A stretch of DNA of 64,000 nucleotides from a virus (Duplodnaviria; Heunggongvirae; Uroviricota; Caudoviricetes). The notes under the pieces are model-generated. The model had not been told where the DNA came from and did not search any database. It saw only the letters and a list, made by a program, of their open reading frames with translations. Shown here piece after piece: positions 1-12,648 of this stretch (position 1 is its first letter; every line of letters begins with the position of its first letter). The stretch lies in the IMG/VR virus record IMGVR_UViG_3300036790_000223; one strand, written 5' to 3'. Made by a program: the position numbers and the translations under genes.

Positions 1-65
1 GAGGGACTCGAACCCCCAGCCGCCTGGTCCGTAGCCAGGTGCTCTATCCGTTGAGCTATGGGCGC
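1..65 (-). tRNA. tRNA-Arg(ACG); 3' acceptor end cut by window edge
   Basis: Revcomp reads GCGCCCATAGCTCAACGGATAGAGC..CTACGGA anticodon loop..GGTTCGAGTCC T-arm. Confidence 0.7.
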
Positions 66-130
66 TAGATTGGCCCCCGACCCCAGGCAGAACGCCGAGG
101 GGGTGAGGTCGGGGGCCTCTCAGGGATGGA

Positions 131-313
131 TCAGTAGCACTCGCGGTCACGCCGGGTGGTGCGGGAGGTGACGGCCTCGGAGACGAAGCTCTTGTCCTCG
201 TCGGTCGTGCCGGTCACCTTGGCGACCAGGGCGTCGGCCTCCTTCTGCGTGTCGAAGGAGCCCCGGACCTGGACCCGGACGTCGTAGCGTGCCTTGTTGC
301 TTCCCTCGGGCAT
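131..313 (-). CDS. hypothetical small protein (60 aa)
   Basis: ORF with non-repetitive composition; no recognisable motif. Confidence 0.3.
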   Translation of the reverse strand: MPEGSNKARYDVRVQVRGSFDTQKEADALVAKVTGTTDEDKSFVSEAVTSRTTRRDRECY

Positions 314-385
314 TTCCTGTTCCTCTTCCTGTTGGGGGTGAGTTGTTTCTCACGTGATACCCAACTATACCTGATTACGGGGCCG

Positions 386-400
386 ATGTAAACGGCTTAT
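386..400. promoter_or_regulatory. GTAAACGG-family motif copy (ATGTAAACGGCTTAT)
   Basis: 15-nt string identical to 10465-10479; intergenic, AT-rich for this genome. Confidence 0.4.
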
Positions 401-403
401 ATG

Positions 404-476
404 TGCCCCCACCTGGAGCCGAACCAGGGACCTCCACCGCGTCATGGTGGCGCTCTGACCACTGAGCTACGGGGGC
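404..476 (-). tRNA. tRNA-Val(GAC)
   Basis: Cloverleaf: GCCCCCG acceptor, GCTCAGTGGTCAGAGC D-arm, CCACC-ATGACGC-GGTGG anticodon arm, GGTTCGGCTCC T-arm. Confidence 0.7.
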
Positions 477-522
477 TAGATCCCCCGGGAGAGCAAACGG
501 GGAAGTCCCTCCCGGGGGACGC

Positions 523-786
523 TCATTTGCCCTTACGGGCCTTACGGGTTGCAGCGTTGGCCTTGCCCATCTCACGGCGGATCTTACGCTGTTCTTCACG
601 CTGGCGCTTCTGCGCGGCCTTCTGGTCTTTGGCTGCCTTGGCGGCGGCGGCCTTTTTCGCTGCTTGCTCCCGCTTGACCCGCTGGACCATCTTGTAGCGG
701 ATCACGTCTGCGTCGTGGGTGGCCTTGTTGCGTTGGTAGCGGGGGTCATTCAGCGCGGCACCTGGCGGCTTCGGCTTGCGGAACAT
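523..786 (-). CDS. highly basic Lys/Arg/Ala-rich small protein
   Basis: 87-aa ORF rich in K/R/A/Q; possible nucleic-acid binding. Confidence 0.45.
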   Translation of the reverse strand: MFRKPKPPGAALNDPRYQRNKATHDADVIRYKMVQRVKREQAAKKAAAAKAAKDQKAAQKRQREEQRKIRREMGKANAATRKARKGK

Positions 787-789
787 GGG

Positions 790-1134
790 CTAGAACCAGC
801 CCGACTTCTTCTTGCCCTGGCTCCGCATCCGCTTCTCGCGGTCCTTGGCTTCCTTGTCGCGCTTGGCCTTCTCCTTGCGCTCCTTGTCGGCCTTGACCTT
901 CTCCGCAGCCCGGGCGCGCTCATCCTTGATGGTCTGCACCCGGCGCTTGGCGACTTCCTTCTCGACCCGGCGGGCTTCCTTCATGTTCCACTTGTGCTGA
1001 TCGATCTCGCGCTGGTGCTTCTCGTCAGCCATGCGCTGCGCACGGGCAGCCGCGATGTCAGCCTTGCGGCCCTTCTGCTGCTTGGCCCGCTCCTTTTCCC
1101 AGGCGGCCTTGTTGTTCGGTCCCCACACTCCCAT
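790..1134 (-). CDS. charged K/E/R-rich coiled-coil-like protein
   Basis: 114-aa ORF, KERAK-type charged repeats; adjacent to the previous basic ORF. Confidence 0.5.
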   Translation of the reverse strand: MGVWGPNNKAAWEKERAKQQKGRKADIAAARAQRMADEKHQREIDQHKWNMKEARRVEKEVAKRRVQTIKDERARAAEKVKADKERKEKAKRDKEAKDREKRMRSQGKKKSGWF

Positions 1135-1165
1135 GGGGTTCTCCCTTCCTCTTCCTGTTCCTGCG

Positions 1166-1238
1166 CGGCCCTGACCGGACTTGAACCGGCACGCTCCACC
1201 TTGACAGGGTGGCGCACTACCAATTGTGCTACAGGGTC
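1166..1238 (-). tRNA. tRNA-Asp(GTC)
   Basis: Anticodon arm CCACC-CTGTCAA-GGTGG, T-arm GCCGGTTCAAGTCCGGT. Confidence 0.75.
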
Positions 1239-1343
1239 ATGTGCGTGAGGCGGCTGCCAGGGTAACCCCTCACGCTGTCCCGCTTGGTGCTCGCGGTGCG
1301 GGCAGACCGCAGGGCTCCTGCCCCTCATGCCCCTGACCCAGCG

Positions 1344-1414
1344 CTCCGGCGCGTGGAATCGAACCACGATAGCCAAGTTAACAGCCTGGTGTCCTGCCGT
1401 TGAACGACACCGGA
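1344..1414 (-). tRNA. tRNA-Asn(GTT)
   Basis: Anticodon loop CTGTTAA, T-arm CGTGGTTCGATTCCACG, acceptor pairs with one G-U. Confidence 0.6.
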
Positions 1415-1466
1415 ATGGTGACCCCTAGGGTCCGCACCCCCCGAGCGGTGCAGACCCTAGGGTCCG

Positions 1467-1540
1467 TAGCGAGGGCGGGATTTGAACCACGCGACCTCCG
1501 GGTTATGAGCCCGGCGAGCTACCGAACTGCTCCACCTCGC
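1467..1540 (-). tRNA. tRNA-Met(CAT), initiator-like anticodon stem
   Basis: GCGAGGTGGAGCAGTTCGGTAGCTCG..CCGGG-CTCATAA-CCCGG (three G-C pairs); T-stem pairing imperfect. Confidence 0.6.
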
Positions 1541-1557
1541 GTAACCAAGTATACCGT

Positions 1558-2130
1558 TTACTGCCTCTCAGCGGTAGCGGCTTTGAAACCAAACGTCATC
1601 AGCATCAGAGCCTCGGCAATAGTGCCCCCCGGGTCGCCGCTGGGCATCATGACGACCTCGCAGTCCCGCTCCTGCTCCACGTGGTAGAACCGGTCAGCGG
1701 TAGTGAAGGCCATGATGTGGCGGGCCTCGATGCGCTCCGGCTGCAGGTAGAGGTCATGCTCGGCTACGGCTCGCTTCAGCCGCTCAGCCACCGCTGGGTC
1801 GTCGTTTTGCTCAGCTGCGGTGATGTTCACGCCCCAGCCCTCAAACCGGAAGGCCATCCCGATCCAGCCGGGTGGCAGCTCGGGCACGGGGGGCTTCGGC
1901 ATCTCCAGGATCGAGTCGGGCAGGCTGTGGTAGTGCATCAGCCCCTCCCCCAGCCGCATCAGCAGCTGCGGTGGCGGGGCCAGATCCCACCACATGCTTG
2001 ACAAGCCCACGGTCACCAGGGCTGCACTGTTGTCACTCTCGGTCAGAAAGTACAGCTCGGGGTGCTCGTCCCATTCGGTGCGGGCGGTCAGCGTTGCGGT
2101 CAGCAGCGCCCCGATCGCTTCGTCGTTCAT
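1558..2130 (-). CDS. hypothetical protein
   Basis: ORF 1558-2181; internal ATG at 2130 (MNDEAIG) taken as start; no motif. Confidence 0.5.
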   Translation of the reverse strand: MNDEAIGALLTATLTARTEWDEHPELYFLTESDNSAALVTVGLSSMWWDLAPPPQLLMRLGEGLMHYHSLPDSILEMPKPPVPELPPGWIGMAFRFEGWGVNITAAEQNDDPAVAERLKRAVAEHDLYLQPERIEARHIMAFTTADRFYHVEQERDCEVVMMPSGDPGGTIAEALMLMTFGFKAATAERQ

Positions 2131-2203
2131 TCCTGTTCCTTTCCCTGCTGAGCCGCCAGCCTGTCCCCGTGACCACCTCACGGGGACAGGCTGGCGGGTC
2201 CCT

Positions 2204-3811
2204 TTAGCGACGCCGGGCGAGGCCGTTCTCGTCCACGACCTTGAACGGGGTGCCGACGCCCTCCAGCACGGTGCGCTGGTTGACCTGCTCCATCTCGGCC
2301 CGCACCTGGCGCCGCAGCAGGGCGTCGATGGTGGCGTCGTCGCTGCCTTCGGCGGCAGCTTCCATCATCTCCTTCTGACGGCGCAGACCCCGGGCTGCCT
2401 CCACCAGGTCAGCGGTGGTGACCTTGGAGGGGCGGCCCTGGTTCTTGGCGATGGAGTAGCGCACTGCCCGGCGGATGGCCTCCACGGCGAACGCTGGCAC
2501 GTAGCCATCGAACGCCTCAACCAGCTCGTCGGTGTACTCGATGTCCGGCCGCAGCGCTGCCGCAATGTGCGACTCCACCAGGTCCTTCAGCTTGGACGGG
2601 GCCACCGCACCCAGGTGGATGACGGCGTCGATCCGGCCTGGCCGCAGCATGCCCTTGTCGATCACGTCGGGGAAGTTGGTGGTGAAGCCCACCATCACCT
2701 CGGTGTTCTTGACGGCTGCGTTGTCCATCGCGTCCAGCACGGTGGAGATACGAGCCCGGGAGTGCTGGGCGTTGGCCAGGTTGTCAGCATCCTCGATCCA
2801 CACGACCGCCGGGGAGTACAGCTGGGCGGTCCTCAGTGCCTCCAGGGGGCTGTCTTCCGGCCGCACCAGGATGAAGGTCCACCCGGCGGCTACGGCGTGC
2901 TGAGCGGTCAGTGCACCGGCCTGGGTCTTGCCCGTGCCGTACGGACCCTCCAGCAGGAACGCCCGCTTGAGTGGCAGGTGGTTCATCCGCATCTGGTCGG
3001 AGTGGTCAATCACCGACCAGATGTTGGCGTGCAGGTCGACCAGGGTGTCGTCGTTGTAGACGCACCGGGTCGGGTCGACCGACTGCTCGTCCCAGAACCC
3101 GGGGTTGTCGCTCCCGTCGATGGCCCGGCCCCGGTAGATGGAGCGCTCCTTCAGCTCCTCCTCCATTGCCCGGAAGAACCCCTCGATGCGGGCCTGGTGC
3201 TTGCGGGGGGCGGTCACGGTGATGTGCGACAGGAAGCCCTTGTTCGGGTCCTTCGCCATCCCGATCTCGAAGTCCGCATCCAGCATCTCAAAGTGGATCT
3301 CGTCCCAGGGCACCTGCATGGACTCGTTCACGCCCACGGGGATGGAGATCAGCTGCGGCCGGTGCTCCTGGCCGAAGAAGTCGAACCAGCTCTTGCCGAT
3401 GCCTGCGGTGCCGAACACCCGCATCATGGCCCGGTTAAAGGCCGCTGCCCCGTCGAAGGGGCGGTAGGGGAACGTGCGGGAGAAGTCGATCTTCTTCTCC
3501 TGCTGCTCCTCGTACTGCCGCAGCGTCTTGCAGGCTCGCTCGATGCCACCGGGTCCCGCCAGGTGCGCGGGGAGACGGATCTTGTCGCCTGCGAACTCGA
3601 TGGAGTCATCCCCTACCGCTGCCCCGCCCAGCTCGCTGAGTACCTCCAGCAGCCGTGCGGTGTCCTTGTCGGCCTGGGTCATGACCCGGCCGGTCTTGGC
3701 GGTTGCGGTTGTCACTTCCTGTTCACCTTCCTGTTCCTTGCGGTCGTCGATGAGCTGGCGCATAAGGCTGTCTAGAGCCGCGCGTAGCTCGGTTTTCTGT
3801 GCGCCACTCAT
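2204..3811 (-). CDS. AAA+ ATPase
   Basis: Walker A LLEGPYGTGKT, Walker B VVWIEDADNL, sensor/Arg-finger-like region; 535 aa. Confidence 0.8.
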   Translation of the reverse strand: MSGAQKTELRAALDSLMRQLIDDRKEQEGEQEVTTATAKTGRVMTQADKDTARLLEVLSELGGAAVGDDSIEFAGDKIRLPAHLAGPGGIERACKTLRQYEEQQEKKIDFSRTFPYRPFDGAAAFNRAMMRVFGTAGIGKSWFDFFGQEHRPQLISIPVGVNESMQVPWDEIHFEMLDADFEIGMAKDPNKGFLSHITVTAPRKHQARIEGFFRAMEEELKERSIYRGRAIDGSDNPGFWDEQSVDPTRCVYNDDTLVDLHANIWSVIDHSDQMRMNHLPLKRAFLLEGPYGTGKTQAGALTAQHAVAAGWTFILVRPEDSPLEALRTAQLYSPAVVWIEDADNLANAQHSRARISTVLDAMDNAAVKNTEVMVGFTTNFPDVIDKGMLRPGRIDAVIHLGAVAPSKLKDLVESHIAAALRPDIEYTDELVEAFDGYVPAFAVEAIRRAVRYSIAKNQGRPSKVTTADLVEAARGLRRQKEMMEAAAEGSDDATIDALLRRQVRAEMEQVNQRTVLEGVGTPFKVVDENGLARRR

Positions 3812-3861
3812 GGGGCGGCTTTCCCTTCCTGAGTTCCTAACCTTACCTGCTGGTACCGCGT

Positions 3862-3932
3862 AGCCCCAACGGGATTTGAACCCGTGCTACTGCCTTGAAA
3901 GGGCGGCGTCCTGGACCGCTAGACGATGGGGC
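3862..3932 (-). tRNA. tRNA-Glu(TTC)
   Basis: Acceptor GCCCCAT, anticodon loop CTTTCAA, T-arm CGGGTTCAAATCCCG. Confidence 0.7.
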
Positions 3933-3982
3933 CTGGGGGGGTGGTGGAGCAGGAGACGAACAAAAACACACCCCACCACCCG

Positions 3983-4057
3983 TACCGGGTACCGGATTCG
4001 AACCGGCGTTACCAACTTGAGAGGCTGGCGTCCTGGGCCTGGCTGGACGAACCCGGC
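3983..4057 (-). tRNA. tRNA-Glu(CTC)
   Basis: Acceptor GCCGGGT/ACCCGGT, anticodon arm CCAGC-CTCTCAA-GTTGG, T-arm GCCGGTTCGAATCCGGT; long D-loop. Confidence 0.55.
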
Positions 4058-4061
4058 ATGC

Positions 4062-4199
4062 TCACTTCTTCTTGCGCTTCTTACGCGCTTCCTTCTCGGC
4101 CTTGCGCTGTTCCCGCTCAGCGCGAGTACAGCTAGCACATAGGCTACCCGCTATTGCGGAGTTCTTACGGCATTTCCAGCAGGTTCCCCATTCGGCCAT
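4062..4199 (-). CDS. small Zn-ribbon protein with basic tail
   Basis: MAEWGTCWKCRKN..CASC..KKRKKK; internal ATG of ORF 4062-4310. Confidence 0.4.
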   Translation of the reverse strand: MAEWGTCWKCRKNSAIAGSLCASCTRAEREQRKAEKEARKKRKKK

Positions 4200-4209
4200 T
4201 TCCTTTTTC

Positions 4210-4416
4210 CTATTCGTAGATCTTGCCGGTGCCCTTGCATCGTGGGCACTGCCCGGCGTCCTTCCAGCCACGGCCCGCTGGTACCCGGACCTGGATCTTG
4301 CCCCGGCCACCGCAGTTCGGGCATTTGGTCTTCCGCTGCACCTTCACCTTTATCTTCATGCGTGCCCCGCCAAGGTACTGACCCCTGTTCCATCGGGTAA
4401 AGGCCGACTGCATCAC
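4210..4416 (-). CDS. DnaJ-type CxxCxGxG zinc-finger minigene (paralog 1)
   Basis: CPNCGGRGK ... CPRCKGTGK; start may be ATG 4359 or 4413. Confidence 0.5.
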   Translation of the reverse strand: MMQSAFTRWNRGQYLGGARMKIKVKVQRKTKCPNCGGRGKIQVRVPAGRGWKDAGQCPRCKGTGKIYE

Positions 4417-4436
4417 CTTAATGCTTGCGGGGCTCG

Positions 4437-4510
4437 TAGGGCGACTGCGACTTGAACGCAGGACCGGCGGATTATGAGTCCGCTGCTCTGACCAGCTGAG
4501 CTACCGCCCC
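4437..4510 (-). tRNA. tRNA-Met(CAT) copy 2
   Basis: GGGGCGGTAGCTCAGCTGGTCAGAGC..GCGGA-CTCATAA-TCCGC..CTGCGTTCAAGTCGCAG. Confidence 0.7.
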
Positions 4511-4516
4511 GCGTCG

Positions 4517-4588
4517 TACCGAGAACGGGGAACGACCCCATGACCTCTGCGTTATGGGCGCAGCGCTCTGCCACTGAGCTACCTCGGC
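4517..4588 (-). tRNA. tRNA(CAT) copy 3, atypical (C33, non-canonical T-loop)
   Basis: GCCGAGGTAGCTCAGTGGCAGAGCG, CTGCG-CCCATAA-CGCAG; T-loop GTCGTTC unusual; may be Ile-lysidine type or a pseudogene. Confidence 0.4.
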
Positions 4589-4592
4589 GTGG

Positions 4593-4667
4593 TGGGCATG
4601 GGAGGAATTGAACCTCCGACCTTCTCCGTATCAGGAAGCTGCTCGAACCGGACTGAGCTGCATGCCC
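4593..4667 (-). tRNA. tRNA-Ile(GAT)
   Basis: Acceptor GGGCATG/CATGCCC, anticodon loop CTGATAC, T-arm GGAGGTTCAATTCCTCC. Confidence 0.6.
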
Positions 4668-4726
4668 CTGTGGATGGGCGCGAGCTGGGCAAGGGAGTGC
4701 AATACAAGCCTCAGCTCGCACCCGTG

Positions 4727-4813
4727 CGGCACCGGTACGATTTGAACGCACGGGACGCTTTCACGCCCTATCGTTTTCGAGACGATTGCCTTAGGCCACT
4801 CGGCCACGGTGCC
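4727..4813 (-). tRNA. tRNA-Ser(CGA), type II
   Basis: GGCACCGTGGCCGAGTGGCCTAAGGC, loop CTCGAAA, long variable arm, T-arm GTGCGTTCAAATCGTAC. Confidence 0.75.
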
Positions 4814-5049: not shown

Positions 5050-5529
5050 CTACGGCTTCAGTTCGCCCATCTCGGTGGCCCAGTTGGCGGCCTGAATGGT
5101 GTCGTCCAGCTGCCGGTACTCCCGGGCCAGCCGGTCAGCTTCGGCTCGCAGGACCGGCACGTCCAGCAGGGTCTCGTCCTTCAGCTCGGATCGAGCCCGG
5201 CGCCCGTACAGGCTGCGCTGGCTGGGGGTGGCGCAGTCGGCCAGGTCACTGATGAACCCGCGTTCGGCGTTCAGCTGGTCCCTCTTGGCTAGCAGCTGGG
5301 TGATGGTGCGGCCATCACTGACCGTGGTGGCCGCGTTGGTCATGTTGATCTCGGCGGCACGGGCACTCAGCCTGACCATCAATGCCCGGACCTGGGTAGC
5401 CAGCTCGTTCGGGTCCTCAACCGGCTGTTCGCCTTCCTGGTGGATGGCGTTGGCCTTAGCCCTGGCCCGCAGCTGGGCTACCTCCTTCTTCATGTCGGAA
5501 AACTCGCTGAGCGCTGTCGCCAGCTTCAT
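5050..5529 (-). CDS. coiled-coil protein of unknown function
   Basis: 159-aa ORF with heptad-like charged repeats. Confidence 0.55.
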   Translation of the reverse strand: MKLATALSEFSDMKKEVAQLRARAKANAIHQEGEQPVEDPNELATQVRALMVRLSARAAEINMTNAATTVSDGRTITQLLAKRDQLNAERGFISDLADCATPSQRSLYGRRARSELKDETLLDVPVLRAEADRLAREYRQLDDTIQAANWATEMGELKP

Positions 5530-5551
5530 CCTCTCTCTCCTTTCGTTAACG

Positions 5552-5640
5552 CGGAGCCTGAGCGATTCGAACGCTCGACAGGGTTGCCCCTGAACCGCCT
5601 TAGCAGGGCGGCGCCATAAACCGGACTAGGCGAAGGCTCC
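5552..5640 (-). tRNA. tRNA-Ser(GCT), type II
   Basis: GGAGCCT acceptor, CCGCC-CTGCTAA-GGCGG, long variable arm, TCGAGCGTTCGAATCGCTC. Confidence 0.75.
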
Positions 5641-5831
5641 ATATTTTGAAGGTGAGGTCTGCTAGGGGTCAACATGCCCGCCTCCTCCGCAGGCTCCCGG
5701 GTGCGCGCTTTTGGGATCGTCCCATTGCCCAGGGCTCGGTACCTCACCGGGGGCTGGCAGGTGCTCCCCCCGGGGGGTGGCCCCTTACGCGGCCTTGCAC
5801 AGGACGTATCGCCCATACCTGCCAGCCTTTG

Positions 5832-5916
5832 TACGCCGGGGGGGACTCGAACCCCCACGTCCTCTCGGACACCTGGGTCTGAGCCAGGCGCGTCTGCCAA
5901 TTCCAGCCACCAGCGC
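5832..5916 (-). tRNA. tRNA-Leu(CAG), type II
   Basis: D-arm TGGCTGGAATTGGCAGACGCG like E. coli Leu, CCTGG-CTCAGAC-CCAGG, variable hairpin GTCCGAGAGGAC, GGGGGTTCGAGTCCCCC. Confidence 0.75.
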
Positions 5917-5999
5917 AAGCAGTTGGGTCACGATCACCGGAATCGGCCGGTACCTTGGCGGCTAGCCGCTGCACCTTGGTTCGCATCGTGACCCAGCCG

Positions 6000-6072
6000 A
6001 GCGGATGACCGGGTTCGAACCGGCGACCTTCACCTTGGCAAGGTGACGCGCTGCCAACTGCGCCACATCCGC
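6000..6072 (-). tRNA. tRNA-Gly(GCC)
   Basis: GCGGATG acceptor, TCACC-TTGCCAA-GGTGA, GCCGGTTCGAACCCGGT. Confidence 0.75.
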
Positions 6073-6129
6073 ATGTGCCACCGCTCTTGGCGACGCGCTG
6101 TGCGCCGTCCAGCAGGAGCGCGGTGGCCA

Positions 6130-6474
6130 CTATCCTGCTGTTTCACCATCGGCTACATGAGCCTCAGGATACCGGCATGAGCGGCAGAGGGTCTTGATCC
6201 AGCCGTGTGCCTTGGTGGCCTGGCATACCCCTGGCTTGCCGCATTGCTCGCATGTCTCACCTGACCTGGCCTCAAACCGGCCCAGGACCCTGGCGATCTC
6301 GATTGGGGCGTGCTCCAGGTAGACCCGCAAGCACCCGAACTTCTCCTTGACCTGGACGGTCTGGTAGGCCGGGTTGATCGCTGACAGTGCTGTGTGCATC
6401 TCGTCCAGCAGACCGTGCCATCCAGGGCCAACATCGTTTTTGTAGTCGGTGACCGGCCCGCCCTGATTGAACAA
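6130..6474 (-). CDS. hypothetical protein with C-terminal Cys4 cluster
   Basis: 114-aa ORF; CEQCGKPG..CRSC. Confidence 0.5.
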   Translation of the reverse strand: MFNQGGPVTDYKNDVGPGWHGLLDEMHTALSAINPAYQTVQVKEKFGCLRVYLEHAPIEIARVLGRFEARSGETCEQCGKPGVCQATKAHGWIKTLCRSCRYPEAHVADGETAG

Positions 6475-6548
6475 CTCGCATCATTCCCTTCCTCGGGGCG
6501 ACCCCCAGGCAGCGCCATGGCCGTATGGGTAAAACCTGGAGGTCACCG

Positions 6549-6621
6549 AGCCCCCTTACGGAATCGAACCGTAGACCTTCTCCTTACCATGGAGACACTC
6601 TGGCCGCTGAGCTAAGGGGGC
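6549..6621 (-). tRNA. tRNA-Thr(GGT)
   Basis: GCCCCCT acceptor, TCTCC-ATGGTAA-GGAGA, TACGGTTCGATTCCGTA. Confidence 0.75.
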
Positions 6622-6646
6622 GTGCGGCCGGTTGCCCGGCCGGTGG

Positions 6647-7003
6647 TCAGGCGGACTCGTCAGCCCGCAGCTTCTCTAGCACGATGCGCACGTCGGCGTA
6701 CCGGGTGTCGGGGTGGTCGTTGAAGGCCGCAATGCCCAGCGGCGTGATGGGGCCGTCCTTCCGCCACCGGCGTTCTGGCCACTGGCTGTTCGCGACCCGC
6801 TGGAACGCCCTGGCGAACCGGTTCCGGTCCCGCTGGGGAATCCCGGCGGCGTCCATGGCTCCTAGCACGCAGTGCCGCTCCATGCCCCGGCCACCGTGGT
6901 AGGTGCTCTTGACCCAGAACCGGCGGCTGGGGATAGCCTCCAGCACCCGGGCTGCCATCTCGCTGGTCTTCATCATGTGCGCTCTTCCGCCATCCTTTCC
7001 CAT
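6647..7003 (-). CDS. hypothetical protein
   Basis: 118-aa ORF. Confidence 0.45.
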   Translation of the reverse strand: MGKDGGRAHMMKTSEMAARVLEAIPSRRFWVKSTYHGGRGMERHCVLGAMDAAGIPQRDRNRFARAFQRVANSQWPERRWRKDGPITPLGIAAFNDHPDTRYADVRIVLEKLRADESA

Positions 7004-7221
7004 TCGGCCACCGTCATGAACCGACGGTGGCGCCCGTCCACCAGGACCATCACCCGCTGGTTAACCCGGGTGGCCTCGTGGGCAGCTGCAACCTGTTCCT
7101 TGGTGCGGACCGGCTTGCTCCTGCTTGCGCCAGAGTTCCCGCCTGCCCTCGCCGGGTTGGAGCCCTTCGGCTTGGGTGCCCGGTACTTCAGCTTCAGGTT
7201 CTGGCCTGTCATCTCCTGCAT
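6973..7221 (-). CDS. hypothetical small protein
   Basis: 82-aa ORF overlapping previous by 31 nt. Confidence 0.4.
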   Translation of the reverse strand: MQEMTGQNLKLKYRAPKPKGSNPARAGGNSGASRSKPVRTKEQVAAAHEATRVNQRVMVLVDGRHRRFMTVAEWERMAEERT

Positions 7222-7244
7222 TGCACTCCCCTGCTTTCCCTTCC

Positions 7245-7394
7245 TTATCCGTACCGGGCTACCCAGCGGTCCAGGAATGCCTGGCCATTGCAGCGCAGAA
7301 TGCGCCGCTTCTTGTTAATCCTACGGTGGTTTTGTGTCCAGTACCGCTGCTTAGACGGCTTGTCCTTGTACTGCTTGCCTTTGTGGGCTCCCAT
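7245..7394 (-). CDS. possible small basic protein (49 aa)
   Basis: MGAHKGKQYKDKPSKQRYW...; below ORF-track cutoff. Confidence 0.25.
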   Translation of the reverse strand: MGAHKGKQYKDKPSKQRYWTQNHRRINKKRRILRCNGQAFLDRWVARYG

Positions 7395-7411
7395 GGTGTG
7401 CTCCCTTTCCG

Positions 7412-7486
7412 AGCCCCCCGCCGGTCTCGAACCGGCAACCTTCGGCTTACAAAGCCACTGCTCTAGTCCACTTGAGCTAGGGAGGC
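7412..7486 (-). tRNA. tRNA-Thr(TGT)
   Basis: GCCTCCC/GGGGGGC acceptor, GTGGC-TTTGTAA-GCCGA, GCCGGTTCGAGACCGGC. Confidence 0.75.
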
Positions 7487-7647
7487 TAGCCTGCGCCGAA
7501 ACTGTGCGCGATGGAGATCAGGCCGCTGGCGACCTCGTTAAAGAGGTCGTAGGCGGTGTGCAAAGCCCAGGCGACAAAAGACGGGGCCTTGATGAGCAGC
7601 CAGATAACGATGGCCCACCCCAGCAGCTTCTTCAAGAACTGAATCAT
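7486..7647 (-). CDS. small transmembrane protein (53 aa)
   Basis: MIQFLKKLLGWAIVIWLLIKAPSFVAWAL..; the longer track ORF runs over tRNAs, so the internal start is used. Confidence 0.4.
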   Translation of the reverse strand: MIQFLKKLLGWAIVIWLLIKAPSFVAWALHTAYDLFNEVASGLISIAHSFGAG

Positions 7648-7667
7648 TCCTTCTCCCTTCCCTAACG

Positions 7668-7742
7668 AGCCTGTGGGCCGGGTTGAACGGCCTGCCTCCG
7701 CTGTACGAGAGCGGCGCTCTGCCTTCCGTGAGCTACACAGGC
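7668..7742 (-). tRNA. tRNA-Thr(CGT)
   Basis: GCCTGTG/CACAGGC, CCGCT-CTCGTAC-AGCGG, GGCCGTTCAACCCGGCC. Confidence 0.75.
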
Positions 7743-7808
7743 ATTGTAGGTGGGCAGGGGGGAGGCGTCGCCCTGGGCTTGCAGCTAAGGGCACCCCCCT
7801 GCCACCCG

Positions 7809-7880
7809 CTCCCCGGCAAGGATTCGAACCTCAAATAACTGGTCCAGGGCCAGTCGTGTTGCCAGTTACACCACCAGGGA
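7809..7880 (-). tRNA. tRNA-Gln(CTG) (C at position 33)
   Basis: TCCCTGG acceptor, ACTGG-CCCTGGA-CCAGT, GAGGTTCGAATCCTTG. Confidence 0.5.
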
Positions 7881-7881
7881 G

Positions 7882-7954
7882 TGCGCCGCCAGGGCCTCGA
7901 ACCCTATATCCCCCGGTTAAGAGCCGGGTGCTTCACCTGTTTAGCTTGCGGCGC
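7882..7954 (-). tRNA. tRNA-Lys(CTT)
   Basis: GCGCCGC/GCGGCGC, CCCGG-CTCTTAA-CCGGG, TAGGGTTCGAGGCCCTG. Confidence 0.7.
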
Positions 7955-7978
7955 TAGCCCGGCCGGAGCCGGGGTTGG

Positions 7979-8074
7979 TCACTTGTCCTTCTTGTCGGTG
8001 CCGGGCTTCTCGTGCGCCCCACCTGCTCCGCCCTTGCCGGTGTTACGGCTGAGCGGCTTCTCGTGCTTTCCCAT
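7979..8074 (-). CDS. possible tiny protein (31 aa)
   Basis: MGKHEKPLSRNTGKGGAGGAHEKPGTDKKDK with GGAGAGGAGGGAACC RBS-like upstream. Confidence 0.25.
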   Translation of the reverse strand: MGKHEKPLSRNTGKGGAGGAHEKPGTDKKDK

Positions 8075-8095
8075 CTGGTTCCCTCCTCTCCTGCG

Positions 8096-8167
8096 AGCCG
8101 CGCCGGGGAGTCGAACCCCGCTTGCCTGCTTGGAAGGCAGGTGCACTAGCCGATGTGCTAGCGCGGC
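8096..8167 (-). tRNA. tRNA-Gly(TCC)
   Basis: GCCGCGC/GCGCGGC, CCTGC-CTTCCAA-GCAGG, CGGGGTTCGACTCCCCG. Confidence 0.75.
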
Positions 8168-8171
8168 ATGC

Positions 8172-8300
8172 TCACTTTCCCACCCAGCCCTTCGGCTTTG
8201 GGTGCTCGCCCTTCCCTTTGCAGTTGGGGCACTTCAGGTCGGGGCGGCCTATGCTGCCGGGGACCGTTCCCTTGCCGCCGCAGGTCTGGCACTTGATCAT
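8172..8300 (-). CDS. DnaJ-type CxxCxGxG zinc-finger minigene (paralog 2)
   Basis: MIKCQTCGGKGTVPGSIGRPDLKCPNCKGKGE..; 42 aa. Confidence 0.5.
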   Translation of the reverse strand: MIKCQTCGGKGTVPGSIGRPDLKCPNCKGKGEHPKPKGWVGK

Positions 8301-8321
8301 GTTGCCACCTTCCCCCGAAAG

Positions 8322-8393
8322 AGACCGTAACCAGGATCGAACTGGTGTGCTCCGCTTTGCAGGCGGACCCCTAAGCCACTCGGGCATACGGTC
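8322..8393 (-). tRNA. tRNA-Cys(GCA)
   Basis: GACCGTA/TACGGTC, TCCGC-CTGCAAA-GCGGA, ACCAGTTCGATCCTGGT. Confidence 0.7.
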
Positions 8394-8411
8394 TAGTGCA
8401 TAACTATGCAG

Positions 8412-8485
8412 TGCTCGCGTCCGGAGCCGAACCGGAGTCCTCCCGGGTTTCAACCGAGCGCTCATTCCAACTGAGCTACACGAGC
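8412..8485 (-). tRNA. tRNA-Phe(GAA)
   Basis: GCTCGTG/CGCGAGC, CTCGG-TTGAAAC-CCGGG, TCCGGTTCGGCTCCGGA. Confidence 0.75.
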
Positions 8486-8687
8486 AAGTTCATGGGGGGC
8501 TGGCCCGCAGCCCGCTTCGACGACCCTGTCGCCTCCGCAGATCCACTACTCGTCTGGCCTGTCGCATTGCCCCGTAAAGGGGGGATGCTGCGGCGCTCAC
8601 TTTCGCAGGTACGCCAGCCCTCCGTTGGCCGTAACTTGATCGTCCCCACGGACCCGGGGGCCTCTGCGGCTAGCGATAGCCAGCCAG

Positions 8688-8761
8688 TCGGGATGACAGG
8701 ATTTGAACCTGCGACCTTCGCGTCCCGAACGCGACGCGCTACCAAGCTGCGCCACATCCCG
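8688..8761 (-). tRNA. tRNA-Pro(CGG)
   Basis: CGGGATG/CATCCCG, TCGCG-TTCGGGA-CGCGA, GCAGGTTCAAATCCTGT. Confidence 0.75.
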
Positions 8762-8868
8762 ATTTGGGGCAGCTAAATCACCCACGTTGACGGATGGGTG
8801 GATGATCCTTCCCCCCGGCTCTGCCGTCTGTTTCTGTCCGGGAGCGCGCCTGCTGCCAAGGCGACTCG

Positions 8869-8942
8869 TCAGCGTGCCCAGATTTGAACTGGGGACTTCC
8901 TGCTCCCAAAGCAGGCGCGCTACCAAGCTGCGCCACACGCTG
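8869..8942 (-). tRNA. tRNA-Pro(TGG)
   Basis: CAGCGTG/CACGCTG, CCTGC-TTTGGGA-GCAGG, CCCAGTTCAAATCTGGG. Confidence 0.75.
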
Positions 8943-9116
8943 TTACCTCAGCCCCGCCCGCTCCGGCCCCCATGAACAAGTGGTACGGGCGAGGCTGGGT
9001 TTGCTGACCCACCACCAGGCTGACTAGCTCCGGTGCGGCTGTCTTACCACCGGAACCAGGCGGCCCTCAGTGGTGGTCAGCAGTAAAACGCCGGGCGTGC
9101 TTGCCACTTAACACCA

Positions 9117-9164
9117 CCGCCCCTTTCGGGGCGGACCGGAATCGAACCGGCGCTTCCCAGCTCG
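9117..9164 (-). pseudogene. tRNA 3'-half fragment (T-arm + acceptor-like hairpin) abutting tRNA-Ala
   Basis: CCGGTTCGATTCCGG T-arm followed by perfect hairpin CCGCCCC-TTTC-GGGGCGG; no room for a 5' half before 9165. Confidence 0.35.
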
Positions 9165-9237
9165 TGGACCGTCGCGGGCTCGAACCGCGCACCCCCTGCT
9201 TGCAAAGCAGGTGCTCTACCAGATGAGCTAACAGCCC
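9165..9237 (-). tRNA. tRNA-Ala(TGC) with G3:U70
   Basis: GGGCTGT/ACGGTCC, CCTGC-TTTGCAA-GCAGG, CGCGGTTCGAGCCCGCG. Confidence 0.75.
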
Positions 9238-9325
9238 TGGAGTGGGGGCGTTCCTGACAGCTTGCTTCCGTCAGGCGAGTGGGACTGCCCTCAGGGGCAT
9301 TTCTCCCCTTCTCCGACTCCCCACG

Positions 9326-9400
9326 TGGTCTGCCCTGGACTTGAACCAGAGAATCTTCCCCTCACGGGGCTGCTCTATGCCGTTGAGCTACTGACCGAGC
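9326..9400 (-). pseudogene. degenerate tRNA-like element
   Basis: Canonical D-arm (GCTCAACGGCATAGAGC) and T-arm (TCTGGTTCAAGTCCAGG) but anticodon arm replaced by CCCC-GTGA-GGGG tetraloop hairpin; acceptor does not pair. Confidence 0.35.
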
Positions 9401-9649
9401 GCCAGGTATCGGCAAGGGGGGCCACCCCTATCCCGCACCTGGCTACCCTCCTGCCCGTCAAGACGGGGGCTATCCCGCTACCCGGTGTGACCCGGGGCGG
9501 CCCGTCAAGGAGCAGGATGCTGGTGGACGGTCCCATTGACCCTCAGCCAGGCTGAGGCGGGTTCTTCCCCGCAGTTTCGCCCGTCGACCGTTCACCTAGG
9601 ATGTCTCCGGTCCCCGCTGCGGGTTTCCAGCCTTTCGGCTTCCGTCCCG

Positions 9650-9722
9650 TGGAGCTAGCGCGACTTGAACGCGCGGCCTCCGCCATGCCATGGCGGCGCT
9701 CTGCCAGCTGAGCTACAGCCCC
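9650..9722 (-). tRNA. tRNA-Ala(GGC) with G3:U70
   Basis: GGGGCTG TA GCTCAGCTGGCAGAGC, CCGCC-ATGGCAT-GGCGG, GCGCGTTCAAGTCGCGC, TAGCTCC 3' acceptor as in E. coli Ala. Confidence 0.75.
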
Positions 9723-9974
9723 TCGCGGTGCCGGTCGGGCCGTTGCAATTCGGTGACCGGTCACCTGCACACTTCTTCCCCCATGGGTTCATCGCCGCCG
9801 TGCGCTATGGCTGCTACCTGCTCTAACCCTCACAGGGGGGCCTTATCTCGCCGGGGGAGGCGGGCTGCTGGCCCTCCCTAGGAGGGCACTGGTGCCCGCC
9901 CGACCCCGGCGAACTTTGGTCTTCAGTTCCAGTTGTCTAGTTGCTAGCACGTCCACCCGCAGGTTGGTGCCGAG

Positions 9975-10046
9975 CACGGGGGCTAGGAGTCGAACCTAGT
10001 TCTCACCGGTTTTGGAGACCGATCGCCTAGCCGTTGGCTCCCCCGC
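9975..10046 (-). tRNA. tRNA-Trp(CCA)
   Basis: TCGGT-CTCCAAA-ACCGG, CTAGGTTCGACTCCTAG; overlaps the last ~17 codons of the HNH ORF. Confidence 0.65.
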
Positions 10047-10430
10047 TCGTCTGCGGTGCTTCCACTCACGGTTGTACTCACGTTTCCGCGCTCGGCACGG
10101 CTCGCAAGGGCAGTTCCGCTTTCCGGAAACCCCGCCACCGTGTTCGACCCCGATCTCTGAACTGGTCTTCTGTCGGTGGCAGAGTCTGCATAGAAGCTGG
10201 CACTTAGCCAGCTCTGCTGCTAGCTCCGCATCTCCCCGGTTCCACCGCACAGTGATCGTGAATTCCTTCAGCGCCCGACTGACGTGGTCGAACTGGAGAT
10301 CTTCAGTTGTGTTGCACTTTGCGCACTTACCACCCAGCAGGCCGATCAGCTTCCGCTTCGCTGCTTCGTAGCGATCCCGGTCGTATTCTGACCGGTCCCA
10401 CTCGGATGCCCACCAGTCCCTGGTTTCCAT
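9996..10430 (-). CDS. HNH endonuclease
   Basis: DHV...LLCRLCH HNH core, Cys-rich C-terminal half; 144 aa. Confidence 0.7.
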   Translation of the reverse strand: METRDWWASEWDRSEYDRDRYEAAKRKLIGLLGGKCAKCNTTEDLQFDHVSRALKEFTITVRWNRGDAELAAELAKCQLLCRLCHRQKTSSEIGVEHGGGVSGKRNCPCEPCRARKREYNREWKHRRRAGEPTARRSVSKTGEN

Positions 10431-10464
10431 CTGCCTGCTAGTAGCTTACCGGATGTGACGCCAT

Positions 10465-12642: not shown

Positions 12643-12648
12643 GATCTC

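What the first reader, a model, noticed from the sequence alone, without database searches (positions are those of the whole stretch)
1..10050. 27-tRNA array with anomalies: C33 tRNAs, a non-canonical T-loop CAT species, a tRNA 3' fragment and a degenerate tRNA-like element
All tRNAs are on the minus strand and interleaved with small genes. Three CAT species appear to be present (initiator-like 1467-1540, elongator-like 4437-4510, atypical 4517-4588 with C33 and GTCGTTC T-loop, possibly a lysidine-type Ile2 or a pseudogene). Element 9326-9400 keeps perfect D- and T-arms but has a tetraloop hairpin in place of the anticodon arm. 9117-9164 is a T-arm/acceptor-like fragment abutting tRNA-Ala, reminiscent of attP cores or array-shuffling scars. 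Both Ala tRNAs keep G3:U70.
Basis: seen in the sequence. Interest (0 to 1): 0.55.

Follow-up and report, generated by a model that had tools for sequence, protein, structure and literature searches.

The report
Phage tRNA array with tRNA-derived oddities
This is most of a 32-gene transfer-RNA cluster carried by a previously unseen high-GC phage; the cluster itself is an ordinary kind of thing, but it also holds two tRNA-derived elements, one of which is a tRNA with its two halves in swapped order, the same layout as the tRNA-like part of bacterial Y RNAs.

Summary
ARAGORN finds 26 tRNA genes and Rfam adds one cut by the window edge, all on the minus strand and interleaved with small ORFs. A 99.8%-identical contig shows that the full array has 32 tRNAs covering all 20 amino acids.

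- **C33:** present in CAT 4516-4588 and in Gln-CTG 7808-7880.
- **CAT 4516-4588:** it has a GTCGTTC T-loop but still scores 52.9 bits as a tRNA.
- **Known range:** C33, odd T-loops and an encoded C74 without CCA all recur in mycobacteriophage Erdmann, so they are not novel.
- **Element 9326-9396:** a tRNA-derived cloverleaf whose anticodon loop is a GUGA tetraloop. It scores 20.6 bits, below Rfam's cut-off of 29.
- **The "3' fragment":** it is half of a 70-nt unit (9091-9160). The unit reads tRNA 3' half, GAAA, matching 5' half. Rejoined in normal order it gives a perfect cloverleaf.

That order, T arm, closed acceptor stem, then D arm, is the layout of the tRNA-like module of YrlA Y RNAs. No Ro60 gene or Ro-binding motif accompanies it, and no diverged relative exists to test conservation. 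I judge relics of array turnover most likely (about 0.55) and functional tRNA mimics less likely (about 0.3). An attP core and a tmRNA are not supported.

The parts
1..65 (-). tRNA-Arg(ACG), 3' end cut by the window edge
   Evidence: Rfam 47.3 bits, truncated; complete in L001 13747-13820
403..476 (-). tRNA-Val(GAC); G37 here, A37 in the second strain
1165..1238 (-). tRNA-Asp(GTC)
1343..1414 (-). tRNA-Asn(GTT)
1466..1541 (-). initiator-like tRNA(CAT): C1xU72, three G:C pairs in the anticodon stem, A11:U24, bulged T in the T stem
   Evidence: (58.8 bits)
3860..3933 (-). tRNA-Glu(TTC)
3982..4057 (-). tRNA-Glu(CTC)
4436..4510 (-). canonical elongator-type tRNA(CAT); Met or Ile2
   Evidence: (64 bits)
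4516..4588 (-). atypical tRNA(CAT): C32 C33, T-loop GTCGTTC (G54, T58); Met or Ile2
   Evidence: (52.9 bits)
4590..4667 (-). tRNA-Ile(GAT), the only gene with an encoded CCA
4726..4813 (-). tRNA-Ser(CGA)
5551..5640 (-). tRNA-Ser(GCT)
5831..5916 (-). tRNA-Leu(CAG)
5999..6072 (-). tRNA-Gly(GCC)
6548..6621 (-). tRNA-Thr(GGT)
7411..7486 (-). tRNA-Thr(TGT)
7667..7742 (-). tRNA-Thr(CGT)
7808..7880 (-). tRNA-Gln(CTG) with C33 and G37 (loop CCCTGGA); abuts tRNA-Lys with no spacer
7881..7954 (-). tRNA-Lys(CTT)
8095..8167 (-). tRNA-Gly(TCC)
8321..8393 (-). tRNA-Cys(GCA)
8411..8485 (-). tRNA-Phe(GAA)
8687..8761 (-). tRNA-Pro(CGG)
8868..8942 (-). tRNA-Pro(TGG)
8945..9082 (-). two long hairpins (9003-9082 and 8945-9001) that fill the rest of the Ala-Pro spacer
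   Evidence: RNAfold of 8943-9163: -126.6 kcal/mol, z = -5.7
9091..9160 (-). circularly permuted tRNA body (T-AS-D module). In minus-strand order: CTGGG (9160-9156, equivalent to the anticodon-stem 3' strand), AAGC, T arm (9151-9135), CCGCCCC-GAAA-GGGGCGG closed acceptor stem (9134-9117), TG, D arm (9114-9097), G, CCCGG (9095-9091)
9164..9237 (-). tRNA-Ala(TGC), G3:U70
9326..9396 (-). anticodon-less tRNA-like cloverleaf: D arm 9388-9372, CCCC-GUGA-GGGG 9369-9358, T arm 9350-9334. The acceptor has an AxA mismatch and a 1-nt deletion. The 3' end reads A73-C74-G75
   Evidence: RF00005 20.6 bits against a cut-off of 29; the cloverleaf is essentially the MFE structure
9649..9722 (-). tRNA-Ala(GGC), G3:U70
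9974..10046 (-). tRNA-Trp(CCA), the lowest-scoring tRNA (35.1 bits); overlapped by the 3' end of an HNH-like ORF
9996..10430 (-). HNH-endonuclease-like ORF (144 aa), not called by JGI
   Evidence: Pfam HNH E = 0.0027; no gene called there
2204..3811 (-). AAA ATPase gene inside the array
5050..5529 (-). DUF6847 gene inside the array
4210..4358 (-). 49-aa CxxCxGxG zinc-ribbon ORF, one of several tiny zinc-ribbon genes between the tRNAs (another at 8172-8300)
   Evidence: JGI calls with weak DnaJ_CXXCXGXG and Anti-TRAP hits; repeat family D9

Best explanation
Window 1-10050 is the larger part of a 32-gene tRNA array, covering all 20 amino acids, in a new 65%-GC phage. The host is probably an actinobacterium; that is inferred.

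**How the array works.** The genes sit on one strand between small ORFs and long hairpin spacers, so they are probably made as polycistronic precursors. Host RNase P and 3' nucleases would cut these. Because 31 of 32 genes encode only C74, the host CCA-adding enzyme would have to complete the 3' ends. All of this processing is inferred. The set can read about 91% of the phage's codons. That fits the current view that such arrays keep phage translation running when host tRNAs are limiting or are cleaved by anticodon nucleases. The off-consensus features (C33 in two tRNAs, G54/U58 in one T-loop, a bulged T stem in the initiator) lie within the range seen in known actinophage tRNAs, and these genes are most likely functional.

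**The two extra elements.** Both are tRNA-derived. 9326-9396 is a tRNA that lost three loop bases and one junction base and gained an acceptor mismatch. 9091-9160 is what remains of a tandem dimer of one tRNA, of Glu/Gln type: the 3' half of the first copy and the 5' half of the second. I consider both most likely by-products of recombination-driven turnover of the array, which now serve at most as structured spacer RNA.

**Shown:** the genes, their structures and the permuted architecture. **Inferred:** transcription, processing, and that the two elements are non-functional.
For: - **Array:**. All 27 score 35-68 bits.
- **Lineage-specific expansion:** the nearest relatives by ATPase (57-62% identity) have only 1-3 tRNAs at the syntenic place.
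- **Codon coverage:** 91% over 13 ORFs. AAA, CAA and ATA are rare (9, 17 and 13 of 6139 codons), so loss of a UUU- or UUG-type tRNA would cost little.
- **Anomalies are shared:** Erdmann has C33 in Val-CAC and Val-GAC, ATCGTAA T-loops, and C74 in 24 of 26 genes. It also has three unannotated orphan T-arm elements inside its array, so tRNA debris occurs in known arrays.
- **Literature:** tRNA clusters in viruses (PMC6409571); anticodon-loop changes in phage tRNAs as escape from anticodon nucleases (PMC10264068).
- **Element 9326-9396:** three independent defects and a score below the curated cut-off.
- **Permuted unit:** closely spaced tRNA pairs (0-5 nt) are common in this array, so a tandem dimer with a 3-nt spacer is a natural precursor. 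After the 5' half come CGTTTTA and then CTG, the first three bases of the expected anticodon-stem 3' strand, as if copy 2 ran on to position 41 (sequence). The 3' side lacks the C74 that all 32 real tRNAs have.
- **Recombination machinery nearby:** RecE/RecT at 15868-18019 and an HNH-like ORF at the array edge.
- **Against a functional Y RNA:** no Ro60 gene and no Ro-binding motif.
Against: - **The permuted unit is suspiciously intact.** All 21 base pairs of its four helices are standard pairs. U8, G18G19, T54-T55-C56, A58 and C61 are kept.
- **Both breakpoints fall in the anticodon loop**, so the closing helix survives. I estimate this as about a 1% coincidence for two independent deletions.
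- **The spacer between the acceptor strands forms a GNRA tetraloop.**
- **It is not a recent copy** of any extant array tRNA; the best match is about 69%. If it is old, decay would be expected.
- **The same architecture is a proven functional RNA** in actinobacteria and mycobacteriophages: YrlA (PMC4201824).
- **Element 9326-9396 keeps the array's A73-C74-G75 3' signature**, and the cloverleaf is its minimum-free-energy fold.
- **No expression data and no diverged relative are available**, so neutrality is not shown.
Confidence: 0.55

Rival explanations
1. The two odd elements are functional tRNA mimics. 9091-9160 would be a YrlA-like module (closing helix, T arm, closed 7-bp acceptor stem, D arm). 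It would be released from the spacer and perhaps cut in the GAAA loop by RNase P and given a CCA end, as happens to M. smegmatis YrlA. It could then bind host tRNA-handling proteins or host Ro60 (Rsr), or act as a decoy for tRNA-targeting defences. 9326-9396 would be an anticodon-less mimic in the normal arm order, as in D. radiodurans Yrn1.
For: - The Rfam YrlA model aligns T arm, stem-loop, GU and D arm in the same order.
- The genuine YrlA next to the Ro gene of mycobacteriophage Erdmann has the same layout and also scores far below the family cut-off (36.1 against 69 bits).
- Rejoined in normal order, the unit gives a perfect 74-nt cloverleaf.
- Only 3 other positions in 128 kb could supply a partner with 7/7 acceptor pairs, 5/5 closing-helix pairs and at least 3 of 4 D-stem pairs.
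- Real adjacent tRNA pairs spaced 25 nt or less show only 2-5 of 7 complementary acceptor positions.
- The T-AS-D fold is within 2.7 kcal/mol of the MFE.
- PMC4201824 reports that the YrlA of M. smegmatis has a 7-bp acceptor-like stem, is cleaved by RNase P and gains CA in vivo.
Against: - The score is only 14.8 bits. That is lower than the 20.1 bits given to an ordinary tRNA dimer in this same array (Ile/CAT junction at 4565-4621), which is the false-positive type the YrlA authors warn about.
- There is no Ro60/TROVE gene in about 88 kb of this genome (Pfam; JGI Pfam), whereas YrlA genes lie within 4 kb of Ro60.
- There is no GNCGAAN0-1G motif beside it; its 5' flank is tRNA-Ala.
- A GAAA tetraloop leaves only a 3-nt leader for RNase P, and there is no C74.
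- The D loop starts with U rather than A14.
- 9326-9396 has a mismatched, shortened acceptor stem.
- There is no conservation evidence.
Confidence: 0.3
2. The T-arm/acceptor fragment at 9117-9163 is the core of a phage attachment site (attP) that matches the 3' end of a host tRNA gene.
For: Many integrases use the 3' part of a tRNA gene as their core. The fragment runs from the anticodon-stem 3' strand to the discriminator, which is the usual extent of such cores (general knowledge).
Against: - No integrase was found in the PHROG or Pfam scans or in the JGI Pfam annotations around the array.
- The fragment is followed by its complementary 5' half, which an attP does not need.
- The phage is large and tRNA-rich, with a RecET and replication module and no lysogeny genes seen.
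- A genome-wide scan for an intact tRNA with this D arm and T loop found no plausible host gene. The 3' half alone was not scanned.
Confidence: 0.03
3. The region around 9100-9500 encodes a two-piece (permuted) tmRNA.
For: A partial Rfam cyano_tmRNA match (18.3 bits, T arm plus closed acceptor stem). ARAGORN with lowered thresholds reports a permuted tmRNA at 9164-9503.
Against: - ARAGORN at default thresholds finds none.
- At the lowered threshold it makes about 117 tRNA calls in 53.5 kb of non-array DNA, so such calls are noise.
- The proposed tag (VAPLADTWRSVSSSTA) lacks the usual C-terminal hydrophobic Ala-Ala end.
- The acceptor stem of 9091-9160 has G3:C70, not the G3:U70 alanine identity pair.
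- The Rfam match covers 49 of 288 model positions.
Confidence: 0.02

Closest known systems
tRNA gene arrays of large actinophages, e.g. cluster C1 mycobacteriophages (Bixzunavirus; Erdmann KX721256)
   Same: About 30 tRNAs interleaved with small ORFs. C74 is encoded without CCA in nearly all genes. Some tRNAs have C33 and non-canonical T-loops. A CAT tRNA lies next to Ile-GAT. Unannotated orphan T-arm elements sit inside the array.
   Different: There is no DNA similarity beyond single tRNAs and the gene order differs. This array has no tmRNA, no peptidyl-tRNA hydrolase and no Ro/YrlA locus. The spacers here are mostly long, near-perfect hairpins. The nearest relatives by protein have only 1-3 tRNAs.
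tRNA-like module of YrlA Y RNAs (Rfam RF02553; Chen et al. 2014, PMC4201824), including those of M. smegmatis and mycobacteriophages
   Same: The order is closing helix, linker, T arm, closed acceptor-like stem-loop, U-purine, D arm, closing helix. The acceptor-like stem is 7 bp, as in M. smegmatis. T-loop and D-loop signature bases are kept.
   Different: There is no Ro60 gene nearby, no GNCGAA Ro-binding motif and no V stem-loop. The score is 14.8 bits against a cut-off of 69. The loop is a 4-nt GAAA rather than 3-18 nt of other sequence. The element sits inside a tRNA array directly after a tRNA.
Circularly permuted tRNA genes of Cyanidioschyzon merolae and some archaea
   Same: The 3' half is encoded upstream of the 5' half, and the acceptor strands are joined by a short intervening sequence.
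   Different: Those genes encode a complete anticodon loop split at a bulge-helix-bulge junction. They need the archaeal/eukaryal splicing endonuclease and a ligase. Here the anticodon loop is not reconstituted and bacteria lack that pathway (general knowledge).
Stable non-tRNA RNAs and pseudo-tRNAs co-encoded in phage tRNA clusters (e.g. T4 species 1 and 2 RNAs; recalled, not tested)
   Same: Structured RNAs of unknown function lie between tRNA genes and would be released by the tRNA processing enzymes.
   Different: No sequence relation was tested. The elements here are clearly tRNA-derived.

Membership tests
Phage tRNA gene array | Many tRNA genes clustered on one strand of a phage genome, each passing a tRNA covariance model | tested here: met
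   27 in the window and 32 in all, at 35-68 bits. Phage genes present: terminase, DnaB, RecE/RecT.
Canonical tRNA (Rfam RF00005) | Atypical CAT species 4516-4588 reaches the gathering score (29 bits) | tested here: met
   52.9 bits
Canonical tRNA (Rfam RF00005) | Element 9326-9396 reaches the gathering score and has a 7-nt anticodon loop | tested here: not met
   20.6 bits; 4-nt loop; acceptor mismatch and 1-nt deletion
Canonical tRNA (Rfam RF00005) | Element 9091-9160 is colinear with the tRNA model | tested here: not met
   No RF00005 match. It is called as a tRNA only after its halves are rejoined in normal order.
Bacterial initiator tRNA | Mismatch at 1:72, three G:C pairs at 29-31:39-41, A11:U24 | tested here: met
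   1466-1541 has C1xU72 (the usual pair is C1xA72), GGG/CCC and A11:T24. Formylation was not tested.
tRNA-Ile2 (lysidine, CAU) | Isotype-specific model or TilS/IleRS identity elements that separate it from tRNA-Met | not testable with these tools
   No isotype models were available. 4516-4588 has almost no relatives among 50,697 phage records, while 4436-4510 resembles many Met and Lys tRNAs. ATA codons exist but are rare (13 of 6139).
YrlA Y RNA (RF02553) | T arm, closed acceptor-like stem and D arm in that order, inside a closing helix | tested here: met
YrlA Y RNA (RF02553) | Reaches the Rfam gathering score (69 bits) | tested here: not met
   14.8 bits over model positions 30-81. A genuine phage YrlA also falls short at 36.1 bits.
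YrlA Y RNA (RF02553) | Encoded within about 4 kb of a Ro60/TROVE gene on the same strand | tested here: not met
   tblastn with the Erdmann Ro protein gives no hit at E<=10 in the window plus flanks, about 88 kb. No TROVE domain in the Pfam scans or JGI annotations. About 29 kb of the genome was not seen.
YrlA Y RNA (RF02553) | GNCGAAN0-1G motif near the 5' end | tested here: not met
   The 5' flank is tRNA-Ala(TGC), which has no such motif. The nearest match (GCCGAAAG) is about 480 nt upstream at about 9630-9637 (sequence).
Permuted tRNA gene (C. merolae type) | The halves reconstitute a full tRNA, including the anticodon loop, through a bulge-helix-bulge junction | tested here: not met
   The termini are CGAG on the 5' side and CGUUUUACUG on the 3' side. 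There is no complete loop and no BHB.
Two-piece tmRNA | G3:U70 acceptor, tag reading frame, pseudoknots, detection by ARAGORN or Rfam | tested here: not met
attP core in a tRNA 3' end | An integrase gene, and identity to the 3' end of a host tRNA gene | tested here: inconclusive
   No integrase was seen in the parts scanned. The 3' half alone was not scanned.

The most novel reading that the evidence does not exclude
A phage tRNA array has produced its own Ro-independent tRNA mimics. One is a YrlA-type module (T arm, closed acceptor stem, D arm) born from a tandem tRNA dimer. The other is an anticodon-less cloverleaf. Both would be released by the tRNA-processing machinery and used during infection, for example as decoys for tRNA-targeting defence nucleases or as ligands for host Rsr or tRNA enzymes. 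This would also be a caught-in-the-act example of how Y-RNA tRNA-like domains arise from tRNA dimers.
Probability: 0.3. Interest if true: 0.65.

Novelty: new member of a known kind. Interest (0 to 1): 0.42.

Why it matters
Large tRNA arrays in phages are well known, so the array adds one more example, from a lineage whose nearest relatives carry only one to three tRNAs. That makes it a recent expansion worth comparing.

The more useful result concerns the 'debris' in the array. One piece has exactly the architecture of the tRNA-like domain of YrlA Y RNAs, whose origin and function are still unknown.
- If it is expressed, it would be a Y-RNA-like tRNA mimic without Ro60, in a phage.
- If it is a relic, it still shows a simple route, a tandem tRNA dimer trimmed at both anticodon loops, by which such domains can arise.

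The comparison with Erdmann also warns annotators that C33, odd T-loops and C74-only 3' ends are normal for actinophage tRNAs and are not signs of pseudogenes.

Tried and rejected
**Searches for diverged relatives, all without result**
- Megablast and blastn of the array and of each odd element against 50,697 phage records gave only generic tRNA matches.
- IMG/VR scans with the ATPase, the DUF6847 protein and two DNA patterns returned only the same 99.8%-identical contig.
- A metagenome scan for the D arm of the permuted unit gave zero hits, not even the window itself.
- A genome scan for an intact version of that tRNA gave two irrelevant hits.
- Exact-protein look-ups showed that only two strains exist. 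The window type matches SRR11833918; the 99.7-99.8% variant matches 3300037258 and SRR11832711.
- ATPase homologues at 57-62% identity lack the array.
- Covariation could therefore not be tested.

**Readings rejected**
- tmRNA and low-threshold ARAGORN calls are noise: about 117 calls in 53.5 kb of control DNA.
- The attP reading has no integrase to support it.
- An assembly artefact is excluded because two independent assemblies agree.
- RNA-repair enzymes near the array were looked for and not found. The metallophosphoesterase at 10784-11617 is the only candidate, and its neighbours have no Pfam or PHROG hits.
- GNRA-capped hairpins are only mildly enriched on the transcribed strand of the array (8 against about 3 expected), and two of them are class II variable arms. 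I do not use this as evidence.

**Left unresolved**
- Assigning the two non-initiator CAT tRNAs to Met or Ile2 by similarity was inconclusive.

Full report
**1. The observation**

ARAGORN finds 26 tRNA genes between 403 and 10046, all on the minus strand. Rfam's tRNA model finds the same genes plus a 27th at 1-65 that is cut by the window edge. With permissive filters all 27 score 35.1-68.5 bits against a gathering score of 29.

From ARAGORN's structures I tabulated the loops.
- C33 is present in two genes. One is the CAT species at 4516-4588 (loop CCCATAA). The other is Gln-CTG at 7808-7880 (loop CCCTGGA, also G37).
- The CAT species at 4516-4588 also has the T-loop GTCGTTC (G54, T58). This could instead be drawn as a 6-bp stem with a 5-nt loop.
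- The CAT species at 1466-1541 has the initiator hallmarks: a mismatch at 1:72 (here C1xU72), G29-31:C39-41 and A11:U24. It also has a bulged T in its T stem.
- Both Ala tRNAs carry G3:U70.
- Only Ile-GAT encodes CCA. Every other gene has C at position 74 followed by a non-CCA sequence.

Small ORFs between the tRNAs are called as genes by JGI on a near-identical contig. Several of them are tiny CxxC zinc-ribbon proteins.

**2. What the window is**

The DNA is 65% G+C. It carries a large terminase, DnaB, RecE/RecT and a replication initiator. It has no close DNA relative among 50,697 phage records. The AAA ATPase inside the array is 37% identical to ATPases of Gordonia phages and Mycobacteroides prophages. 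DUF6847 and DUF6197 genes are present. I infer an actinobacterial host.

One IMG/VR contig (3300037258, 42.8 kb) is 99.77% identical over window 1-13802 and runs past the window start. It shows that the array continues with Arg-ACG (complete), Val-CAC, His-GTG, Tyr-GTA, Arg-CCG and Arg-CCT. That makes 32 tRNAs covering all 20 amino acids.

The two strains differ at 24 sites. Only one of these lies in a tRNA: position 37 of Val-GAC is G in the window and A in the contig. Neither odd element differs.

The 30 distinct anticodons can read 91% of the codons of 13 phage ORFs under standard wobble.

The closest other relatives have ATPases 57-62% identical. They carry only 1-3 tRNAs at the syntenic place. 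The array is therefore a lineage-specific expansion.

**3. Are the 'anomalies' anomalous?**

I applied the same tabulation to the array of mycobacteriophage Erdmann, cluster C1.
- It has C33 in both of its Val tRNAs.
- It has ATCGTAA T-loops in Gly-GCC and Asp-GTC.
- It has C74 after the discriminator in 24 of 26 genes, mostly as ACG, the same signature as here.

C33, odd T-loops and C74-only 3' ends are therefore within the known range of actinophage tRNAs. They do not mark pseudogenes. The atypical CAT species passes the covariance model at 52.9 bits.

Anticodon-loop changes in phage tRNAs have been proposed to give resistance to host anticodon nucleases (PMC10264068). The C33 genes and the position-37 polymorphism fit that idea but do not test it.

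I could not decide which of the two non-initiator CAT genes is Met and which, if either, is the lysidine-type Ile2. No isotype models were available, and similarity searches were uninformative. ATA codons exist but are rare, 13 of 6139.

**4. Element 9326-9396**

Rfam aligns it end to end with the tRNA model at 20.6 bits, below the cut-off of 29. Three points show it is tRNA-derived rather than a chance match.
- The E-value of 2.3 is multiplied by 4227 families. For the tRNA model alone it is about 5e-4.
- No sub-threshold tRNA match occurs in the other 53.5 kb of the window.
- The cloverleaf is essentially its minimum-free-energy fold.

It has perfect D and T arms. It also has three defects.
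- The anticodon loop is a GUGA tetraloop on a 4-bp stem.
- Position 5:68 is AxA.
- One base is missing at the acceptor/D junction.

It keeps the A73-C74-G75 3' signature of the real genes.

**5. The '3' fragment' is half of a permuted tRNA**

Directly after tRNA-Ala(TGC) the minus strand reads as follows:
- CTGGG, then AAGC;
- the T arm GCCGG-TTCGATT-CCGGT;
- CCGCCCC-GAAA-GGGGCGG;
- TG;
- the D arm GTGT-TAAGTGGCAA-GCAC;
- G, then CCCGG.

This occupies 9160-9091. It is a tRNA 3' half, from the anticodon-stem 3' strand to the discriminator, followed after AAA by a 5' half, from the acceptor 5' strand to the anticodon-stem 5' strand.

The evidence that the two halves belong together:
- The two acceptor strands pair 7/7. 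The two anticodon-stem strands pair 5/5, with one G:U.
- Rejoined in normal order with any 7-nt loop, ARAGORN calls a 74-nt tRNA with all four stems intact.
- RNAfold of the whole Ala-Pro spacer closes both helices (z = -5.7).
- The tRNA-like fold of the 70-mer is within 2.7 kcal/mol of its MFE.
- Only three other positions in 128 kb of window sequence could supply a partner with 7/7, 5/5 and at least 3 of 4 D-stem pairs.
- Real tRNA pairs spaced 25 nt or less in this array and in Erdmann show only 2-5 complementary positions out of 7.

The body is of Glu/Gln type, but it is at most about 69% identical to any tRNA I hold.

**6. Comparison with known RNAs**

The order 'T arm, closed acceptor stem, D arm, inside a closing helix' defines the tRNA-like module of YrlA Y RNAs. 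The Rfam YrlA model aligns to the element over exactly these parts (14.8 bits, model positions 30-81).

The YrlA next to the Ro gene of mycobacteriophage Erdmann has the same layout and itself reaches only 36.1 bits against a cut-off of 69.

Chen et al. 2014 (PMC4201824) report the following.
- YrlA occurs in more than 250 bacteria and 22 mycobacteriophages, nearly always within 4 kb of Ro60.
- It has a GNCGAAN0-1G motif near the 5' end.
- In M. smegmatis it has a 7-bp acceptor-like stem that is cleaved by RNase P, and it gains CA in vivo.
- Dimeric tRNAs are a source of false positives.

Here the other family features are absent.
- There is no Ro60 homologue in the window plus flanks, about 88 kb (Pfam). 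The unseen part of the genome is probably the structural module between portal and tape measure.
- There is no Ro-binding motif beside the element.
- There is no C74.
- An ordinary tRNA dimer in this same array (the Ile/CAT junction) scores higher on the YrlA model, at 20.1 bits.

The element therefore has the architecture of a YrlA module but is not a member of that family by the family's own criteria.

It is also not a C. merolae-type permuted tRNA gene, because there is no complete anticodon loop and no splicing junction. It is not a tmRNA. An attP core has no integrase to go with it and would not need the 5' half.

**7. Explanation and weights**

The array itself is a working tRNA supply of a known kind. 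Its precursors would be processed by host RNase P and 3' nucleases and completed by the CCA-adding enzyme. This processing is inferred.

For the two odd elements I weigh two readings.

*Relics, about 0.55.*
- tRNAs 0-5 nt apart are common here, so a tandem dimer of one tRNA is a natural precursor. In such a dimer the two acceptor strands and the two anticodon-stem strands are complementary for free.
- The 5' half runs on through CGTTTTA-CTG, as a trimmed second copy would.
- RecET and an HNH-like ORF are at hand.
- Erdmann's array also holds orphan T-arm elements.
- The cloverleaf at 9326-9396 has three independent defects.

*Functional tRNA mimics, about 0.3.*
- The permuted unit shows no decay in 21 base pairs.
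- It keeps the tertiary-interaction bases.
- Both of its breakpoints lie in the anticodon loop, so the closing helix survives.
- It is capped by a GNRA tetraloop.
- It copies an architecture known to be expressed and processed in actinobacteria.

No diverged relative exists in any collection I could search. Covariation could therefore not be tested, and the question is open until expression or comparative data are available.

**8. Verdict**

The array is a new member of a well-known kind, and most of its 'anomalies' are ordinary for actinophage tRNAs. The new point is that the tRNA fragment is one half of a circularly permuted, YrlA-like tRNA body. Interest is moderate. It would rise if either element proves to be expressed.

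Noticed in passing
window 50187-50242 (-): Type II hammerhead ribozyme candidate. Rfam RF02276 gives 33.6 bits (cut-off 37) over the full model. The conserved core is intact (CGAAAC, GUC, CUGAUGAG). It lies between two minus-strand ORFs: the DUF932 gene 49158-50198, whose 5' end it overlaps by 12 nt, and 50466-51065.
   Followed up: partly
window 52600-57690 (+): Probable DNA-hypermodification gene cluster: amino acid:DNA transferase (ADDT, 52600-53721), PLP-dependent enzyme (54277-55125), P-loop nucleotide kinase 3 (55865-56452) and a TET/JBP dioxygenase (56467-57690), just upstream of the terminase.
   Followed up: no
window 66-130, 477-522, 1415-1465, 2132-2203, 3934-3981, 4668-4725, 5917-5998, 6073-6129, 6485-6547, 7743-7807, 8945-9082 (-): Most spacers between the tRNA genes are single long, near-perfect hairpins whose ends pair with each other (z-scores -2.2 to -6.8; only 5917-5998 is weaker than -2.7). 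This brings the 3' end of one tRNA next to the 5' end of the following one. They may be processing or insulating structures. None has a U-tract terminator tail.
   Followed up: partly
all 32 tRNA genes (window 1-10046 and L001 13747-15323): Every gene has C at position 74 after the discriminator, but only Ile-GAT encodes CCA. 'ACG' is the commonest 3' context. Mycobacteriophage Erdmann shows the same pattern in 24 of 26 genes. The M. smegmatis YrlA 5' fragment, too, gains only CA in vivo.
   Followed up: partly
window 440 (tRNA-Val(GAC), position 37): The only difference between the two strains inside a tRNA is at anticodon-loop position 37: G in the window and A in the IMG/VR contig.
   Followed up: no
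window 9996-10430 (-): An HNH-endonuclease-like ORF (CxxC...DH...CxxCH) ends inside tRNA-Trp, overlapping about 50 nt of it. JGI's gene caller did not call it. tRNA-Trp is the weakest-scoring tRNA of the array.
   Followed up: partly
window 8172-8300, 4210-4358, 4062-4203 (-); L011 14866-15042; L015/L016 13459-16733: A family of very small (42-60 aa) CxxC/CxxCxGxG zinc-ribbon proteins, with weak DnaJ zinc-finger and Anti-TRAP matches, is scattered through the tRNA array and again downstream of the terminase.
   Followed up: no
L012 18561-18772 (Mycobacterium phage Erdmann KX721256, record 93560-93771): Three unannotated orphan T-arm elements lie between the peptidyl-tRNA hydrolase gene and tRNA(CTA). 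Two of them form acceptor/T-arm minihelices ending in an encoded ACCA, although most real tRNAs of that array lack CCA. None reaches a tRNA or YrlA match in Rfam.
   Followed up: partly
window 42434-47068 (+) and L013 3329-8854 (+): Two giant proteins (1544 and 1841 aa) each carry a Spherulin4 domain. The second follows a tape-measure-like gene, so they are probably tail fibre or host-recognition proteins.
   Followed up: no
window 9619-9640 (-): The hairpin AGCC-GAAA-GGCU, about 10 nt after the 3' end of tRNA-Ala(GGC), contains GCCGAAAG. This matches the GNCGAAN0-1G Ro-binding motif described for Y RNAs, and it lies about 240 nt upstream of the anticodon-less tRNA-like element. It is probably coincidence.
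   Followed up: no
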